Shown here one piece after another: positions 1 to 6,369 of a DNA stretch of 6,492 nucleotides (position 1 is its first letter; the number at the start of each line of letters is the position of its first letter). Under the pieces are notes generated by a model. It made no database searches. It was not told the DNA's origin and saw nothing but the letters and a program-made list of their open reading frames with translations. The position numbers and the translations under genes were made by a program. Origin of the DNA: a virus (lineage: Duplodnaviria > Heunggongvirae > Uroviricota > Caudoviricetes); the IMG/VR virus record IMGVR_UViG_3300029080_000025, positions 1 through 6,492 of that record; one strand, given 5' to 3'.

Positions 1-296
1 AGAATCTCTATCTGGATAATCTGGAGGCCACAGGGCTGTATCAGGTGCCGTTGTCATCAGTACAACCGGGTGATGTGCTGCTGTGCTGTTTTGGTTCATC
101 GGTGCCGAATCATGCCGCTATTTACTGTGGTGACGGCGAGCTGCTGCACCATATTCCTGAACAACTGAGCAAACGAGAGAGGTATACCGACAAATGGCAG
201 CGACGCACACACTCCCTCTGGCGTCACCGGGCATGGCACGCATCTGCCTTTACGGGGATTTACAACGATTTGGCCGGCGCATCGACCTTCGTGTGA
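1..296 (+). CDS. K: Phage tail tip assembly protein K, C-terminal part (5' end lies upstream of the window)
   Basis: The frame is open from the window edge to the TGA at 294-296. The translation (...VQPGDVLLCCFGSSVPNHAAIYCGDGELLHHIPEQLSKRERYTDKWQRRTHSLWRHRAWHASAFTGIYNDLAGASTFV) matches my recollection of the C-terminus of lambda gpK. Its position directly upstream of and overlapping I is as in lambda. Confidence 0.85.
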   Translation, partial: NLYLDNLEATGLYQVPLSSVQPGDVLLCCFGSSVPNHAAIYCGDGELLHHIPEQLSKRERYTDKWQRRTHSLWRHRAWHASAFTGIYNDLAGASTFV

Positions 297-865
297 AAAC
301 GGGGGCTGAAGCCATCCGGGCACTGGCCACACAGCTCCCGGCGTTTCGTCAGAAACTGAGCGACGGCTGGTATCAGGTACGGATTGCCGGGCAGGATGTC
401 AGCACGTCCGGATTAACGGCGCAGTTACATGAGACTCTGCCTGATGGCGCTGTGATTCATATTGTTCCCAGAGTCGCCGGGGCCAAGTCAGGTGGTGTAT
501 TCCAGATTGTCCTGGGAGCAGCCGCCATTGCCGGATCATTCTTTACCGCCGGAGCCACCCTTGCAGCATGGGGGGCAGCCATTGGGGCCGGTGGTATGAC
601 CGGCATCCTGTTTTCTCTCGGTGCCAGTATGGTGCTTGGCGGTGTGGCCCAGATGCTGGCCCCTAAACCCAGAACTCCCCGCACACAAACAACGGATAAC
701 GGTAAGCAGAACACGTATTTCTCGTCACTGGACAACATGGTTGCCCAGGGCAATGTTCTGCCTGTTCTGTACGGTGAAATGCGCGTGGGGTCACGTGTTG
801 TCTCTCAGGAGATCAGCACGGCAGACGAGGGGGACGGTGGTCAGGTTGTGGTGATTGGTCGCTGA
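194..865 (+). CDS. I: Phage tail tip assembly protein I
   Basis: 223-aa ORF from ATG to TGA (863-865). The translation (MAATHTLPLASPGMARICLYGDLQRFGRRIDLRVKTGAEAIRALATQL...GDGGQVVVIGR) is near-identical, as recalled, to lambda gpI, which has the same length. It overlaps the K 3' end out of frame, as in lambda. Confidence 0.9.
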   Translation: MAATHTLPLASPGMARICLYGDLQRFGRRIDLRVKTGAEAIRALATQLPAFRQKLSDGWYQVRIAGQDVSTSGLTAQLHETLPDGAVIHIVPRVAGAKSGGVFQIVLGAAAIAGSFFTAGATLAAWGAAIGAGGMTGILFSLGASMVLGGVAQMLAPKPRTPRTQTTDNGKQNTYFSSLDNMVAQGNVLPVLYGEMRVGSRVVSQEISTADEGDGGQVVVIGR

Positions 866-866
866 T

Positions 867-896
867 AATCACCGCCAGCTATGACGGTGATTGTTT
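867..896 (+). terminator. Candidate weak hairpin plus T-rich tract between convergent I and sodC
   Basis: Inverted repeat aatcaccg (867-874) / cggtgatt (884-891) with a 9-nt loop, followed by gtttt. The stem is short and only half G/C, so this is weak; it may be a bidirectional stop or nothing. Confidence 0.2.
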
Positions 897-907
897 TAGG
901 CTGTTTG

Positions 908-1437
908 TTATTTAATTATTCCGCATGCCAGTCTTGCGCCCCCACCCCCCAGAGGAGCAGGTGAATCGGANNNNNNNNNNNNTTATCCCCTCCGGCATGA
1001 ATCATGATCGCCCGTTCTTTTATCTGGCTTATTTTTTTTATTTTTGGACTCAGAACCGGGTTTTCTGCATTTCCTTCTGAGTTGACATAGAGTGCTGGTA
1101 GATCACCCAGATGGCCCTCCGGATTGTACGGCCCAAGATGTTTATTTGTTTGTTCAGGATCATAATGCCCACCGGCAGCAAGAGCTGGCACTTTTTTTCC
1201 ATTAATCAGACCGGGATCACAACTGGCATTTTCATGGATATGAAAGCCATGTAACCCTGGTGGTAGTTCTTTCAGATGAGGAGTGAACAGCAATCCGTAG
1301 CTGGTTTCTGAAATAGTTATTTCCCCTATATTTTTCCCTACTCCTTCTGAGGAAACGAGATTTACAGGGATCGTCATTGTATCAGCCATTACGGCTCCAC
1401 TAAGTAGCGCAGTTACAGCAAGTATTTTTTTTATCAT
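908..1437 (-). CDS. sodC: Periplasmic copper/zinc superoxide dismutase (SodC family), prophage cargo; reading frame interrupted by an N-run at 971-982
   Basis: Reverse-strand ORF starting at ATG 1435-1437. It encodes a signal-peptide-like N-terminus (MIKKILAVTALLSGAVMA) and Cu/Zn-SOD hallmark motifs (GFHIHENASC, PALAAGGHYDP, GHLGDLP, MIHAGGD). After the N-run the ORF-track frame is wrong. The adjacent frame reads SDSPAPLGGGGARLACGIIK and stops at TAA (rc of 908-910), the expected SodC C-terminus including the disulfide cysteine. I therefore place the true 3' end at 908 rather than 916. Confidence 0.85.
971..982. other. Run of 12 ambiguous bases (assembly gap or masked bases) inside sodC
   Basis: Literal n characters at 971-982. 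The flanking codons show the real missing length must be 1 mod 3 for sodC to be intact, whereas 12 is 0 mod 3, so the N-run length is probably arbitrary. Confidence 0.95.
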
Positions 1438-1570
1438 AAATACCCCGTCATTTCGTGTTGTTAATCAAGGTGATTTAAGTTTTAACAAATGAAATACAAC
1501 AGATGCATTTTTGTTGCAAGCGGTCGTTATATGGTTCGCATAAAATTGATTACTGTTTCGGGAATTATCT
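1438..1570. promoter_or_regulatory. AT-rich divergent intergenic region between the sodC start and J start; probable location of the sodC promoter and 5' UTR
   Basis: 133-bp AT-rich spacer between divergently oriented sodC (-) and J (+). On the minus strand a TTGCAA (rc of 1514-1519) lies 17 nt upstream of TATTTC, and GGGG sits 5-8 nt upstream of the sodC ATG as a Shine-Dalgarno candidate. The promoter hexamers are weak matches and not confirmed. Confidence 0.3.
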
Positions 1571-4500
1571 ATGGGTAAAGGTGGCACTAAGGGGCATACC
1601 CCGCGCGAAGCGAAGGACAACCTGAAATCATCCCAGCTGCTGAGCGTGATAGACGCCATCAGTGAAGGGCCGATTGAAGGTCCGGTGGACGGATTAAAAA
1701 GTGTGCTGCTGAACAGTACGCCGGTGCTGGACAGTGAGGGGAATACCAATATCTCCGGTGTCACGGTGGTGTTCCGGGCAGGTGAGCAGGAGCAGACACC
1801 GCCGGAGGGATTTGAATCCTCCGGTTCAGAAACCGTTATCGGTGCAGAATTAAAATATGACAATCCGCTCACCCGGACCATCACGTCGGCAAACATCGAC
1901 CGTCTGCGCCTGACCTTCGGTGTGCAGGCACTGGTGGAAACCACTTCAAAGGGGGACCGGAATCCGTCGGAAGTTCGCCTGCTGGTTCAGATACAACGTA
2001 ATGGTGGCTGGGTGACGGAAAAAGACATCACCATTAAGGGCAAAACCACCTCACAGTATCTGGCCTCGGTGGTGGTGGATAATCTGCCGCCGCGACCGTT
2101 CAGTATCAGGATGCGCAGGATGACGCCGGACAGCACCACAGACCAGTTGCAGAACAAAACGCTCTGGTCGTCATACACCGAAATTATCGATGTGAAACAG
2201 TGCTACCCGAACACGGCACTGGTCGGCGTGCAGGTGGACTCTGAGCAGTTCGGCAGCCAGCAGGTGAGCCGTAATTATCATCTGCGCGGGCGCATTCTGC
2301 AGGTGCCGTCGAACTATAACCCGCAAACACGGCAATACAGCGGTATCTGGGACGGAACGTTCAGGCCAGCGTACAGCGACAACATGGCCTGGTGTCTGTG
2401 GGACATGCTGACCCACCCGCGCTACGGCATGGGGAAACGTCTTGGTGCGGCGGATGTTGATAAATGGGCGTTGTATGCCATCGGTCGGTACTGCGACCAG
2501 TCGGTACCGGATGGCTCTGGCGGCACGGAGCCGCGCATCACCTGTAATGCGTACCTGACCACACAGCGCAAGGCGTGGGATGTGCTCAGTGATTTCTGCT
2601 CGGCGATGCGCTGTATGCCGGTATGGAACGGGCAGACGCTGACGTTCGTGCAGGACCGGCCATCGGATAAGGTGTGGACCTATAACCGCAGTAATGTGGT
2701 GATGCCGGATGATGGCGCGCCGTTCCGCTACAGCTTCAGCGCCCTGAAGGACCGCCATAATGCCGTTGAGGTGAACTGGATTGACCCGGACAACGGCTGG
2801 GAGACGGCAACAGAGCTTGTGGAGGACACGCAGGCCATTGCCCGTTACGGTCGTAACGTCACGAAGATGGATGCCTTTGGCTGTACCAGCCGGGGGCAGG
2901 CACACCGAGCCGGGCTGTGGCTGATTAAAACAGAACTGCTGGAAACGCAGACCGTGGATTTCAGCGTGGGTGCAGAAGGGCTTCGCCATGTGCCGGGAGA
3001 CGTCATTGAAATCTGCGATGATGACTATGCGGGTATCAGCATCGGTGGTCGCGTGCTGGCGGTGAACAGCCAGACCCGGACGCTGACGCTCGACCGTGAA
3101 ATCACGCTGCCAGCCTCCGGCACCACACTGATAAGCCTGGTCGACGGGACGGGGAGTCCGGTCAGCGTGGTGGTCCAGTCCGTCACCGACGGCGTGCAGG
3201 TGAAAGTGAGCCGGGTTCCTGACGGCGTTGCCGGATACAGCGTGTGGGGGCTGAAGCTGCCGACGCTGCGCCAGCGCCTGTTCCGCTGCGTGAGTATCCG
3301 TGAGAACGACGACGGCACGTACGCTGTCACTGCCGTGCAGCATGTGCCTGAAAAAGAGGCTATCGTGGATAACGGGGCGCACTTTGACGGCGACCAGAGC
3401 GGCACGGTGAATGGTGTCACGCCGCCAGCAGTGCAGCACCTGACCGCAGAAGTCTCCGCAGACAGCGGGGAGTATCAGGTGCTGGCGCGCTGGGACACGC
3501 CGAAGGTGGTGAAGGGGGTGAGCTTTATGCTTCGCCTGACCGTGGCAGCGGACGACGGCAGTGAGCGGTTGGTCAGCACGGCCCGGACGACGGAAACCAC
3601 ATACCGCTTCACGCAACTGGCGCCAGGGAACTACAGGCTGACAGTCCGGGCGGTAAATGCGTGGGGACAGCAGGGCGACCCGGCGTCGGTATCGTTCAGG
3701 ATTGCCGCACCGGCAGCGCCGTCACAGATTGAGCTGACGCCGGGCTATTTTCAGATAACCGCCACGCCGCATCTTGCCGTTTATGACCCGACGGTACAGT
3801 TTGAGTTCTGGTTTTCGGAAAAGCGGATTACCGATATCAGGCAGGTTGAAACCACAGCCCGCTATCTTGGCACGGGGATGTACTGGATAGCCGCCAGTAT
3901 CAATATCAAACCGGGCCATGATTATTACTTTTATATCCGCAGCGTGAACACCGTTGGCAAATCGGCATTCGTGGAGGCTGTCGGTCAGGCGAGCGATGAT
4001 GCGGAAGGTTACCTGGATTTTTTCAAAGGCCAGATAACCGAATCCCATCTCGGCAAGGAGCTGCTGGAAAAAGTCGAGCTGACGGAGGATAACGCCAGCA
4101 AACTGGAGGAGTTTTCGAAAGAGTGGCAGGACGCCAACGATAAGTGGAATGCCATGTGGGGCGTCAAAATTGAGCAGACCAAAGACGGCAAACATTATGT
4201 CGCGGGTATTGGCCTCAGCATGGAGGACACGGAAGAAGGCAAGCTGAGCCAGTTTCTGGTTGCCGCTAACCGTATCGCGTTTATTGACCCGGCAAACGGG
4301 AATGAAACGCCGATGTTTGTGGCGCAGGGCAATCAGATATTTATGAACGACGTGTTCCTGAAGCGTCTGACGGCCCCGACCATTACCAGTGGTGGAAATC
4401 CACCGGCATTTTCCCTGACACCGGACGGGCGGCTGACGGCGAAAAACGCTGATATCAGCGGTAACGTGAATGCGAACTCCGGGACGCTCAACAATGTCAC

Positions 4501-4984
4501 GATAAGTGAGAACTGTACGATTAAGGGCATGCTGGAGGCGACCCAGGTCAGAGGGGATTTCGTTAAAGCTGTATCAAAAGCCTTCCCGAAAAAAGTCGGT
4601 ACGTGGGGTAACACGGAAACGCCAGACGGGACGGTTACAGTCACCATCAGCGATGATCATAACTTTGACCGTCAGATTATTATCCCGCCCATTATCTTTA
4701 ACGGTATAGCGTATACCGATCCGGGAAGTGGTAATAACCCGGGAGGTACAAGGTACACGGGTTATGGATTTGAAGTTCGCAAAAACGGCGTATTAATCGC
4801 ATCCAGAGAAACTAAAGGGGCCATTCCCGGTAGTTACAGTGCGGTTATTGATATGCCGAGTGGGCGAGGTAGCGTCACTCTGGAGTTTAAGATTTACCAG
4901 AAAGGCAATCAGGGGGCAGGCAATATCACCGACTGTACGGTGATTGTGACCAAAAAAGCGGCTTCCGGCATCAGTATCCGTTGA
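1571..4984 (+). CDS. J: Phage host specificity protein J (central tail fibre / tail tip protein)
   Basis: 1137-aa ORF. The N-terminal and central regions ([54 protein letters not shown]...; ...[39 protein letters not shown]...) closely match my recollection of lambda gpJ (1132 aa), including the fibronectin-III-like middle region. The position downstream of K and I is as in lambda. Confidence 0.95.
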
Positions 4985-5005
4985 AATATTTATAACCCTA
5001 ATAAC

Positions 5006-5031
5006 GGGCGCCAGAAATGGCGCCTTTTTTA
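5006..5031 (+). terminator. Rho-independent terminator downstream of J (tJ-like)
   Basis: GC stem ggcgcc (5007-5012) / ggcgcc (5019-5024) with loop agaaat, followed by tttttt (5025-5030). It lies 22 nt after the J stop codon. Confidence 0.6.
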
Positions 5032-5045
5032 TTTGTGGAGTGAGT

Positions 5046-6098
5046 ATGGCAGTACAGATTTCAGGTGTACTGAAAGATGGTGCAGGTAAGCCGATACAAA
5101 ACTGCACCATTCAGCTAAAGGCCAGACGTAACAGCACCACGGTGGTGGTGAACACAGTGGCCTCAGAAAACCCGGATGAAGCCGGGCGTTACACAATGGA
5201 CGTTGAGTACGGTCAGTACAGCGTCATTCTGTTGGTGGAGGGATTTCCGCCGTCACATGCCGGGACCATCACCGTGTATGAAGATTCTCAGCCGGGTACG
5301 CTGAATGATTTTCTCGGTGCCATGACGGAGGAGGATGCCCGGCCGGAGGCACTGCGCCGTTTTGAACAGATGGTGGAAGAGGCAGCGCGTCACGCTGAGG
5401 AGGCGAAGAAGAATGCCGGAGAGGCAGAGACGTCAGCGAGGAATGCGGGTATATCAGTCGGCCAGGCGGAAAAGAGTGCAGTAAATGCTGACACTTCAGC
5501 AGGGGAGGCATCGGAGTCAGCCCGGCAGGCGGCAGAAAGTGCAGCCTCAGCAAAGCAGTCAGAGGATGCGTCCTCGTCCTCGGCTTCTGCGGCCGCTCAA
5601 AAAGCCAGTGAGTCATCACAAAGTGCAGCAGAAGCTGAATTGTCAAGAAAGACGGCAGAAAGTGCAGCCGGTAATGCATCCAGGGATGCAACGACCGCAG
5701 CAGAAAAAGCCCGGGAGTCAGCAGAAAGCGCACAGTCAGCGGAACAAAGCAGGATAGCGGCGGAAGAGGCCGTAAACCGAATCCCCACCGTGGTGGGACC
5801 TCCCGGGCCAAAGGGGGAACAGGGGCCCGCTGGCCCTCAGGGGCCGAAGGGAGACCCGGGCGAGACACAAATCCGTTTTCGTCTGGGGCCGATGAGCATT
5901 ATTGAGACAAACAGCTATGGCTGGTTCCCGGATACAGATGGTGCGCTCATCACCGGACTGACCTTTCTTGACCCCAAAGATGCCACACAGGTTCAGGGGG
6001 TGTTTCAGCATTTGCAGGTCAGATTTGGTGACGGGCCGTGGCAGGATGTTAAGGGGCTGGATGAAGTGGGCAGTGATACAGGCAGAACAGGAGAATGA
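5046..6098 (+). CDS. stf: Side tail fibre protein (lambda Stf-like N-terminus, Ala/Ser/Glu-rich shaft, collagen-like Gly-X-Y segment, short distinct C-terminal domain)
   Basis: ORF ending at TGA 6096-6098. I prefer ATG 5046 (GGAG at 5037-5040, 5-nt spacing) over the in-frame GTG at 5040 because MAVQISGVLKDGAGKPIQNCTIQLKARRNSTTVVVNTVASENPDEAGRY... then matches the recalled lambda Stf N-terminus (MAVKISGVLKDG...). It is much shorter (350 aa) than lambda Stf (774 aa). Confidence 0.85.
   Translation: MAVQISGVLKDGAGKPIQNCTIQLKARRNSTTVVVNTVASENPDEAGRYTMDVEYGQYSVILLVEGFPPSHAGTITVYEDSQPGTLNDFLGAMTEEDARPEALRRFEQMVEEAARHAEEAKKNAGEAETSARNAGISVGQAEKSAVNADTSAGEASESARQAAESAASAKQSEDASSSSASAAAQKASESSQSAAEAELSRKTAESAAGNASRDATTAAEKARESAESAQSAEQSRIAAEEAVNRIPTVVGPPGPKGEQGPAGPQGPKGDPGETQIRFRLGPMSIIETNSYGWFPDTDGALITGLTFLDPKDATQVQGVFQHLQVRFGDGPWQDVKGLDEVGSDTGRTGE
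5370..5790 (+). repeat. Low-complexity Ala/Ser/Glu-rich coding repeats within stf (imperfect tandem AESA-type units)
   Basis: Recurring nucleotide motifs gcagaaagtgcag / gcagaaagcgcac / gcggaaaagagtgcag encode repeated AESAA-like peptide units (EAARHAEEAKKNAGEAETSARNAG...SESARQAAESAASAKQSEDASSSSASAAAQKASESSQSAAEAELSRKTAESAAGNAS...). Boundaries are approximate. Confidence 0.6.
5796..5864 (+). repeat. Collagen-like Gly-X-Y triplet repeat within stf
   Basis: The in-frame codons read GPP GPK GEQ GPA GPQ GPK GDP GE, i.e. seven consecutive G-X-Y triplets plus a trailing Gly-Glu, on a GC-rich stretch (gggccaaagggggaacaggggcccgctggccctcaggggccgaagggagacccgggc). Confidence 0.8.
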
Positions 6099-6099
6099 C

Positions 6100-6369
6100 A
6101 TGAACATACTAAAAAAACTTATGCAGCGTCTGTGCGGTTGCGGAAAGCATGATGGCCGTGAACACGGGCAGTCACTTACAGCACAACTGCGACTGGGGCC
6201 GGCAGACATCCTGGAGTCAGATGAGAATGGTATTATCCCGGAGCAGGCCAGGGTAATCACGCAGGTGGTGATACTGGATGCGGATAAAAAGCAGATACAG
6301 TGCGTGGTAAGACCGCTGCAAATTCTGCGTGCTGACGGGAAGTGGGAAAATATTGGCGGGATGAAGTAA
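6100..6369 (+). CDS. Hypothetical 89-aa protein, unknown function, immediately downstream of and closely coupled to stf
   Basis: ATG at 6100 with AGGAG at 6089-6093 (6-nt spacing), ending at TAA 6367-6369. Translation: MNILKKLMQRLCGCGKHDGREHGQSLTAQLRLGPADILESDENGIIPEQARVITQVVILDADKKQIQCVVRPLQILRADGKWENIGGMK. The ORF track extends this frame back to 5968, but that part overlaps stf and has no better start signal. I recognise no family. Confidence 0.55.
   Translation: MNILKKLMQRLCGCGKHDGREHGQSLTAQLRLGPADILESDENGIIPEQARVITQVVILDADKKQIQCVVRPLQILRADGKWENIGGMK

What the first reader, a model, noticed from the sequence alone, without database searches (positions are those of the whole stretch)
866..1570. 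Reverse-strand sodC moron inserted between tail genes I and J, with a distinct base composition
In lambda, I and J are separated by only a few tens of bases. Here about 700 bp lie between them and carry a convergent, opposite-strand periplasmic Cu/Zn superoxide dismutase gene with a signal peptide. The insert is visibly AT-rich: my hand counts over several 60-nt lines give roughly 35-55% GC, mostly near 42%, against about 60% in J. This is the signature of a horizontally acquired moron expressed independently of the late operon. Prophage-borne sodC is an established fitness and virulence factor (Salmonella Gifsy-2 sodCI, E. coli O157 prophage sodC), so the element is probably a lysogenic-conversion prophage of a pathogenic or commensal enterobacterium.
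Basis: partly seen in the sequence, partly recalled or inferred. Interest (0 to 1): 0.55.

Follow-up and report, generated by a model that had tools for sequence, protein, structure and literature searches.

The report
Prophage sodC moron between tail genes
A periplasmic copper/zinc superoxide dismutase gene sits backwards between tail genes I and J of a lambda-like prophage of Escherichia albertii or E. coli; this is a real but ordinary example of an arrangement already known from Salmonella Fels-1 and E. coli O157 prophages.

Summary
Window 866-1570 is a 705-nt insert between I (194-865) and J (1571-4984). It carries a minus-strand sodC (908-1437). GC is 42.3% against a mean of 56.6% elsewhere, and GC3 is 0.32 against 0.68 in J. 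Contigs encoding the identical I protein but no insert match the window up to 866 and again from 1571, so the 59-nt native I-J spacer was replaced. The protein passes the curated cut-offs of Pfam Sod_Cu and of the NCBIfam SodC equivalog. It has a Sec-type signal peptide, and the metal-ligand positions of its aligned relatives are conserved. Six relatives (92-98% identical over the shared I-sodC-J stretch) have only 4 nt there and encode an intact 173-aa SodC, so this is probably an assembly gap. The same slot and orientation occur in Fels-1 (sodCIII), an O157-type Stx2a phage, another E. coli prophage and a Citrobacter prophage. This allele is deposited as SodC from E. albertii and draft E. 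coli genomes, and is absent from 5,426 complete E. coli genomes. No consensus promoter was found. A hairpin after the stop codon travels with the gene in non-phage contexts. Verdict: interpretation supported, already known, low interest.

The parts
194..865 (+). Tail assembly gene I (223 aa), left neighbour of the insert
   Evidence: Pfam Lambda_tail_I, 97.6 bits. The exact protein is found on contigs with and without the sodC insert.
866..1570 (.). The 705-nt cassette that replaces the 59-nt native I-J spacer
   Evidence: Homology to insert-less relatives L093 and L095 (98-99% and 96-99% identical) ends at 866 and resumes at 1571. GC is 0.423.
867..892 (-). Hairpin immediately 3' of sodC (11-bp stem, 4-nt loop on the sodC strand). 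It is probably the sodC terminator or 3' stabiliser. On the + strand it is followed by a U-rich run, so it may also act after gene I.
   Evidence: Folding energy is -15.5 kcal/mol on the minus strand (z -4.6) and -18 kcal/mol on the plus strand (z -3.9). It is conserved downstream of sodC in a plasmid-like locus (L101) and a chromosomal locus (L103), with a compensatory T-A to C-G change. Homology stops at ...GGTGATTA.
908..1437 (-). sodC, periplasmic Cu/Zn superoxide dismutase precursor (173 aa if the N run stands for the 4 nt seen in relatives)
   Evidence: Pfam PF00080, 89 bits. NCBIfam NF007628 SodC equivalog, 214.5 bits for the reconstructed protein and 175.2 bits for the 151 aa actually readable, cut-off 165. 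PHROG 1975 'superoxide dismutase precursor', category moron. Best solved-structure match is Salmonella SodCI, E 7e-68.
971..982 (.). Run of 12 N inside sodC. The frame shifts by one base across it.
   Evidence: Relatives L083-L088 have 4 nt (ATGA on the + strand, giving Asn-His) at this place.
1384..1437 (-). Signal peptide (MIKKILAVTALLSGAVMA, predicted cleavage before DTMT)
   Evidence: By inspection: basic n-region, hydrophobic core, V-M-A at -3 to -1. The first residue of the crystallised SodCI chain 1eqw, which I take to be the mature protein, aligns with residue 19.
939..950 (-). G6-T-G5 tract (coding strand) encoding the LGGGG motif. In some relatives it is an uninterrupted run of 14-15 G.
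   Evidence: Frameshifted deposited homologues P0001, P0124, P0125 and P0127 all break at this tract.
1438..1570 (-). AT-rich (33% GC) spacer between the sodC and J start codons. It is the presumed sodC promoter region, with an SD-like GGGG at 1443-1446. It also supplies the sequence upstream of J.
   Evidence: GC. Identical in L083 and L087. No consensus promoter. The only weak candidate is TAATCA-15-TATAAC at 1552->1526. No significant fold and no credible Rfam match in 700-1800 (one sub-threshold hit outside the cassette).
1571..4984 (+). Tail tip / host specificity gene J (1137 aa), right neighbour of the insert
   Evidence: Six J-specific Pfam domains.

Best explanation
The insert is a lysogenic-conversion ('moron') cassette in the tail module of a lambda-like prophage of Escherichia albertii or E. 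coli. It consists of a hairpin, a reverse-strand sodC and an AT-rich upstream spacer, and it replaces the whole native I-J spacer. Shown here: the insertion boundaries, the foreign composition, membership of the bacterial SodC family with catalytic residues conserved, and a hairpin that travels with the gene. Inferred: in the lysogen, where the late operon is silent, sodC is transcribed from a promoter in or near the 133-nt spacer. The precursor is exported by Sec, cleaved after VMA, loaded with Cu and Zn and disulfide-bonded in the periplasm. There it dismutates superoxide of external origin, such as the phagocyte oxidative burst, as shown for Gifsy-2 SodCI and proposed for O157 SodC-F. The antisense orientation keeps sodC expression separate from late transcription, which must read through the cassette to reach J during lytic growth.
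For: The ORF and its neighbours are identified. Insert-less contigs that encode the identical I protein place the boundaries at 866 and 1571. Composition: GC 0.423 against 0.566 +/- 0.042, and GC3 0.318 against 0.677. The low GC is intrinsic to the cassette, with sodC at 0.41-0.44 in the non-phage relatives too. Family scores are above curated cut-offs and PHROG 1975 is in the moron category. The HGFHIHE, SC, GGH, KH, GHLGD, IH, GGGGAR and ACG motifs are conserved in the alignment with SodCI, SodCIII, SodC-F type and K-12 SodC. Close relatives are intact at the N run, and the window has no other indel against the intact L083. The same slot and orientation are seen in Fels-1, E. coli FDAARGOS_1283, Stx2a phage EH1846 and Citrobacter. 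From the literature: sodCI is highly expressed while Gifsy-2 lytic genes are silent, and antisense placement is typical of accessory loci (PMC7067206). O157 prophage sodC-F genes are expressed and encode stable dimeric enzymes (PMC2569942).
Against: As the sequence stands, the gene is out of frame across the 12 N, so intactness of this copy is inferred from relatives. No sigma-70 consensus promoter was found on the sodC strand, and only one weak candidate appears in a relaxed scan. The upstream spacer is not homologous to the experimentally active O157 sodC-F promoter fragment, so promoter activity cannot be transferred. The hairpin lacks a U-tract on the sodC strand. No expression, export or activity data exist for this allele.
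Confidence: 0.88

Rival explanations
1. The sodC copy in this window is a pseudogene, a decaying remnant in a defective prophage that makes no active enzyme.
For: Read literally, the frame shifts across the N run, and the last 20 residues, including the catalytic Arg and the second disulfide Cys, are lost. Several deposited homologues are frameshifted at the nearby G tract. One relative contig (L084) has lost most of J.
Against: All six close relatives have 4 nt where the window has 12 N, and the four whose sodC was translated encode the full 173-aa protein. A run of N is unresolved sequence, not evidence of a mutation. The window's G tract is the interrupted G6TG5 form, identical to intact L083. 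I, J and the tail-fibre genes in the window are full-length ORFs.
Confidence: 0.08
2. sodC is not an insertion but an old resident of this tail module, and the insert-less phages, lambda included, lost it by deletion.
For: sodC occupies the same slot and orientation in at least five diverged lambdoid tail modules. SodC identity between them (56-66%) is of the same order as that of I (67-69%) and J (70-79%).
Against: GC3 of 0.32 against about 0.7 persists in every lineage. The junctions differ between lineages: Fels-1 and Citrobacter keep the native I-J hairpin next to J, the window type does not, and the O157 type has a 190-240-nt left spacer. The window's SodC groups with plasmid-like and chromosomal copies (98% bootstrap), not with the other I-J-slot copies. 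Those non-phage copies share the 3' hairpin.
Confidence: 0.07

Closest known systems
Salmonella phage Fels-1 sodCIII (STM0924)
   Same: Same slot (between the gpI and gpJ homologues), same opposite-strand orientation, similar sizes (525-nt gene, 722-nt insert) and lower GC than the flanks. It is the closest phage-borne protein, at 65.5% identity.
   Different: It belongs to a different SodC clade: Fels-1 groups with the Citrobacter copy at 97% bootstrap, and the window with non-phage copies at 98%. The Fels-1 insert keeps the native I-J hairpin and J ribosome-binding region next to J, whereas the window type replaced the whole spacer. The spacers are not homologous. The identification of STM0924 as sodCIII rests on my own knowledge plus PMC3920066, because the record calls it hypothetical.
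E. coli O157:H7 prophage sodC-F1/sodC-F2 type (as in Stx2a-converting phage Stx2_EH1846; D'Orazio et al. 2008, PMC2569942)
   Same: A lambdoid prophage with sodC on the opposite strand between the tail assembly gene and the host specificity gene, and a 133-nt sodC-J spacer. The published enzymes are periplasmic and dimeric, and are expressed in log phase and anaerobically.
   Different: Only 57% protein identity, a 190-nt left spacer with other hairpins, higher GC (0.53) and no upstream homology. That the Stx2a-phage gene is the sodC-F type is my inference and was not checked against EDL933.
Salmonella Gifsy-2 sodCI
   Same: A prophage-borne, opposite-strand sodC inside the tail module. It is the best solved-structure match (6d52, 1eqw, E about 1e-67, 62% identity). 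It is an established virulence factor expressed in lysogens.
   Different: A different slot, between the lom-like gene and L rather than between I and J. PhoPQ control of sodCI (my own knowledge) cannot be transferred, because PhoP-box-like matches are at chance level.
Chromosomal E. coli K-12 sodC (b1646)
   Same: Same enzyme family and length, with a signal peptide.
   Different: 53% identity, a core-genome location, and it falls outside the group that holds all the phage-associated SodC types in the tree.

Membership tests
Bacterial periplasmic Cu/Zn superoxide dismutase SodC (Pfam PF00080, NCBIfam NF007628) | Profile score above the curated cut-off | tested here: met
   PF00080 scores 89 bits against 28.9 on the literal ORF. 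NF007628 (equivalog) scores 175.2 bits on the 151 residues actually readable and 214.5 bits on the reconstructed 173 aa, against a cut-off of 165.
Bacterial periplasmic Cu/Zn superoxide dismutase SodC (Pfam PF00080, NCBIfam NF007628) | Cu ligands (four His), Zn ligands (three His and one Asp), the disulfide Cys pair and the active-site Arg | tested here: met
   HGFHIHE, SC, AGGH, KH, GHLGD and MIH lie before the N run and are conserved with SodCI, SodCIII and K-12 SodC. GGGGAR and ACG are encoded after the N run, and are in frame only if the N run stands for 4 nt as in the relatives. Which residue plays which role comes from my knowledge of the family.
Bacterial periplasmic Cu/Zn superoxide dismutase SodC (Pfam PF00080, NCBIfam NF007628) | N-terminal Sec signal peptide for export to the periplasm | tested here: met
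   MIKKILAVTALLSGAVMA|DT by inspection. The start of the crystallised SodCI chain, which I take to be the mature protein, aligns at residue 19. No dedicated predictor was available. Some database entries start at M17 (157 aa) and so lack the signal peptide.
Bacterial periplasmic Cu/Zn superoxide dismutase SodC (Pfam PF00080, NCBIfam NF007628) | Superoxide dismutase activity | not testable with these tools
   Needs an activity gel or assay on periplasmic extracts.
Phage moron (Hendrix/Juhala sense) | Lies between two genes that are adjacent in related phages | tested here: met
   L093 and L095 encode the identical I protein, with J starting 59 nt later. Homology breaks at 866 and 1571. Lambda and more than 100 phages have no insert.
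Phage moron (Hendrix/Juhala sense) | Nucleotide composition distinct from the surrounding phage genes | tested here: met
   GC 0.423 against 0.566 +/- 0.042, and GC3 0.318 against 0.589 (I) and 0.677 (J).
Phage moron (Hendrix/Juhala sense) | Own promoter | tested here: inconclusive
   No consensus hits. One weak candidate, TAATCA-15-TATAAC. No homology to a characterised sodC promoter.
Phage moron (Hendrix/Juhala sense) | Own terminator | tested here: inconclusive
   A stable hairpin lies directly after the stop codon and is conserved with the gene in three genomic contexts, with a compensatory change. It has no U-tract on the sodC strand, and the consensus scan did not call it.
Phage moron (Hendrix/Juhala sense) | Expressed in the lysogen independently of the late operon | not testable with these tools
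   Needs RNA-seq or 5' RACE. Shown for sodCI in Gifsy-2 (PMC7067206) and for sodC-F in O157 (PMC2569942), not for this allele.
Fels-1 sodCIII lineage | Orthology: same SodC clade and same insertion junctions | tested here: not met
   Same slot and orientation. However, the window's SodC groups with non-phage copies (98% bootstrap) while Fels-1 groups with Citrobacter (97%), and the junctions and spacers differ.
Gifsy-2 sodCI lineage | Location between lom and L, and the SodCI clade | tested here: not met
   The slot is different. Identity is 62%. Grouping with SodCI has only 65% bootstrap support.

The most novel reading that the evidence does not exclude
The I-J junction of lambdoid tail modules is a recurrent landing site for sodC cassettes. 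At least two or three separate sodC lineages (the window type, the Fels-1/Citrobacter type and the O157/FDAARGOS type) would then have been captured independently, always on the opposite strand. Each has its own junctions, and each is related to sodC copies on plasmid-like elements or islands. That would imply selection for this particular slot and orientation rather than a single ancestral insertion.
Probability: 0.4. Interest if true: 0.35.

Novelty: already known. Interest (0 to 1): 0.15.

Why it matters
Prophage-borne sodC genes are textbook lysogenic-conversion genes. This copy adds little beyond showing that E. albertii and some E. coli carry a third, uncharacterised SodC lineage in the same tail-module slot as Fels-1 sodCIII and the O157 sodC-F type. 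It could be relevant to oxidative-stress resistance of E. albertii, an emerging enteropathogen, but nothing here departs from the known pattern. The modestly useful by-products are the exact cassette boundaries, the hairpin that travels with the gene, and the hint of repeated capture at one junction.

Tried and rejected
(1) A PhoP box upstream of sodC, by analogy with sodCI: 12 matches in the window against 9.7 expected by chance, so rejected as uninformative.

(2) Sigma-70 consensus scan: 0 promoter hits in 780-1660. A relaxed scan gave one weak hit.

(3) Rfam scan of 700-1800: only a sub-threshold hit outside the cassette. The upstream spacer shows no significant fold.

(4) Exact look-up of the J protein found nothing. 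The genome-contig scan found no close relative, with a best of 64% in Pseudomonas, so the source genome was not recovered. P0122 and P0123 could not be looked up.

(5) My early reading that the window and Fels-1 are colinear through the left junction came from BLAST extending across a short spacer. A stricter comparison gives separate matches for I and sodC, and the spacer is not homologous.

(6) Alignment of the upstream spacer with the plasmid-like and chromosomal relatives shows convincing similarity only in the roughly 25 nt next to the start codon, so the right-hand edge of the mobile unit is not defined.

Full report
**What is in the window.** The ORF list and Pfam scan give the following layout:
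- the end of a K-like NlpC/P60 gene (45-296)
- tail assembly gene I (194-865, Lambda_tail_I)
- a gap of 705 nt
- tip attachment gene J (1571-4984, six J-specific domains)
- a tail-fibre gene (5040-6098)
- a small tail-fibre-C gene (6100-6369)

In the gap, a minus-strand ORF starting at 1437 matches Pfam Sod_Cu (89 bits, cut-off 28.9).

**The composition claim holds.** The insert has 42.3% GC. That is lower than any non-overlapping 705-nt stretch elsewhere in the window (minimum 47.9%, mean 56.6%, sd 4.2). GC3 is 0.318 for sodC, 0.589 for I and 0.677 for J.

Positions 971-982 are 12 N inside sodC.
- Upstream of the N run the gene reads ...MIHAGGD. Downstream, the conserved C-terminus SDSPAPLGGGGARLACGIIK (stop at 908-910) is in a different frame. 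Read literally, the gene is frameshifted, and the mechanical ORF (916-1437) ends in an unrelated tail.
- Six IMG/VR contigs (L083-L088) are 92-98% identical to the window across the I-sodC-J stretch they share with it. They have only 4 nt (ATGA) at that place, giving Asn-His. The four whose sodC was translated encode a full 173-aa SodC.
- The window shows no other indel against L083, and its G tract matches the intact form.
- The N run is therefore most simply an assembly gap of mis-estimated length, but the state of this particular copy is inferred, not read.

**Is it an insertion?** Yes.
- The window's exact I protein is found on four other contigs. One has the sodC cassette (L094). Two have J starting 59 nt after I with no cassette (L093, L095).
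- Identity to the insert-less contigs is 98-99% (L093) and 96-99% (L095). It runs up to position 866 and resumes at 1571, the J start codon.
- The native spacer carries a hairpin and a GAGAGGA ribosome-binding site. All of it has been replaced.
- Lambda and more than 100 other lambdoid phages, and over 4,000 E. coli genomes, match only the end of I and the start of J, about 60 nt apart.

**What the protein is.**
- The reconstructed protein scores 214.5 bits on the NCBIfam SodC equivalog NF007628 (cut-off 165). The 151 residues that can actually be read score 175.2 bits.
- PHROG 1975, 'superoxide dismutase precursor', in the category moron/auxiliary/host takeover, scores 253 bits.
- The best solved-structure matches are Salmonella SodCI (6d52, 1eqw; E about 1e-67) and Yersinia SodC. 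E. coli SodC (1eso) comes lower.
- All motifs that carry the Cu and Zn ligands, the disulfide cysteines and the active-site arginine are conserved in a 15-sequence alignment.
- The N-terminus MIKKILAVTALLSGAVMA|DT looks like a Sec signal peptide. The first residue of the crystallised SodCI chain, which I take to be the mature protein, aligns at residue 19.

**Host and distribution.**
- The 90% cluster of this protein has 60 members, named from Escherichia albertii (including complete chromosomes) and from draft E. coli genomes such as RN587/1.
- No complete E. coli genome among 5,426 carries this allele. The best DNA matches to the insert are 67-71% identical sodC genes in 62 genomes.
- Only 9 of 50,697 phage records encode any relative. 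The closest is Fels-1, at 65.5% protein identity.

**Comparison with known cases.** The arrangement is not new.
- Fels-1 has gpI, then a reverse-strand 525-nt gene, then gpJ. That gene is STM0924, known in the literature as sodCIII (PMC3920066).
- The same slot and orientation occur in an O157-type Stx2a-converting phage, in E. coli FDAARGOS_1283 and in a Citrobacter meridianamericanus prophage.
- Gifsy-2 sodCI sits elsewhere in the tail module, between lom and L.
- All these inserts keep a 133-144-nt AT-rich sodC-J spacer and a GC below the flanks.

**One insertion or several?** The details differ between lineages.
- Fels-1 and Citrobacter retain the native I-J hairpin next to J. The window type does not. 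The O157 type has a 190-240-nt left spacer.
- In a bootstrapped NJ tree the window's SodC groups with two non-phage copies at 98% support. These are P0004, in a plasmid-like context with CcdAB, TraD and a SPATE autotransporter, and P0002, next to a fimbrial operon.
- The Fels-1/Citrobacter group (97%) and the O157/FDAARGOS/SMS-3-5 group (100%) form other clades.
- This suggests more than one capture at the same junction. The deeper nodes are weakly supported (62-65%), so it remains a suggestion.

**Cassette anatomy.**
- Directly after the sodC stop lies a hairpin (867-892). Its folding energy is -15.5 kcal/mol on the sodC strand and -18 kcal/mol on the + strand, both well beyond shuffled controls.
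- The same hairpin follows sodC in the plasmid-like and chromosomal relatives, with a compensatory T-A to C-G change. Homology ends at its base, 1-3 nt from the I stop. It therefore belongs to the sodC unit.
- On the sodC strand it lacks a U-tract. On the + strand it is followed by a U-rich run, so it may also substitute for the lost I-J hairpin.
- Upstream of sodC nothing convincing was found. There is no consensus promoter, one weak relaxed hit, PhoP-box matches at chance level, no credible Rfam match and no significant fold.
- Similarity to the non-phage relatives upstream is limited to about 25 nt next to the start codon.

**Mechanism.**
- Shown: an inserted, compositionally foreign cassette encoding a bona fide SodC precursor with its own conserved 3' hairpin.
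- Inferred from the family and from published work on sodCI and sodC-F: transcription in the lysogen from a promoter in or near 1438-1570, Sec export, metal loading in the periplasm, and protection against external superoxide. The antisense orientation would insulate it from the late operon.

**Verdict.** The feature is a further instance of a well-known kind, already deposited and annotated as SodC. Interest is low.

Noticed in passing
window 971-982: A run of 12 N lies inside sodC. Relatives have 4 nt there, so the length of the N run is not the true length, and the ORF called mechanically (916-1437) has a false C-terminus.
   Followed up: yes
window 939-950; L086, L104 (E. coli RN587/1); proteins P0001, P0124, P0125, P0127: The G6-T-G5 tract encoding LGGGG is an uninterrupted run of 14-15 G in some relatives. 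Several deposited E. coli and E. albertii SodC proteins are frameshifted exactly there. This could be real slipped-strand (phase-variable) inactivation or homopolymer sequencing error.
   Followed up: partly
database entries P0121, P0125, P0126, P0128: Many deposited copies of this SodC are annotated from Met17 (156-157 aa), which removes the signal peptide. The 173-aa start, with a GGGG Shine-Dalgarno-like motif, is the one consistent with the homologues.
   Followed up: partly
L085, L087 compared with window 194-865: In two relatives SodC (98-99%) and J (about 97%) are nearly identical to the window, but protein I is only about 80% identical. A mosaic (recombination) boundary therefore lies within or just after gene I.
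   Followed up: partly
window 5871-6062 and 6100-6369: Two copies of the Phage_fiber_C domain occur. One is at the end of the 352-aa tail-fibre gene (5040-6098). The other makes up a separate 89-aa ORF that starts 2 nt after its stop codon (PHROG 576 'tail fiber protein', full length). It looks like a spare or alternative fibre C-terminus.
   Followed up: partly
window ~4530-4984: The C-terminal receptor-binding part of J drops to about 48% GC and does not align with Fels-1 or Gifsy-2 J at the DNA level, which suggests a swapped receptor-binding domain.
   Followed up: no
window 4985-5039: The spacer between J and the tail-fibre gene contains a GC-rich inverted repeat followed by a T run (ggcgccagaaatggcgcctttttta), a terminator-like hairpin on the + strand.
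   Followed up: no
L084 (IMGVR_UViG_2558860274_000009): This relative keeps I-sodC and the first ~370 nt of J, then jumps to the equivalent of window ~5774. Most of J and the start of the tail-fibre gene are deleted while sodC is retained, as expected for a decaying prophage that keeps its cargo gene.
   Followed up: no
L097 (E. coli SMS-3-5, NC_010498.1 3245951-3246475): A sodC of the O157/FDAARGOS clade sits in an IS-rich island beside sitA rather than in a prophage tail module. In the 62-genome search 11 of the 70 matching places were on plasmids, so sodC cassettes also move outside phages.
   Followed up: partly
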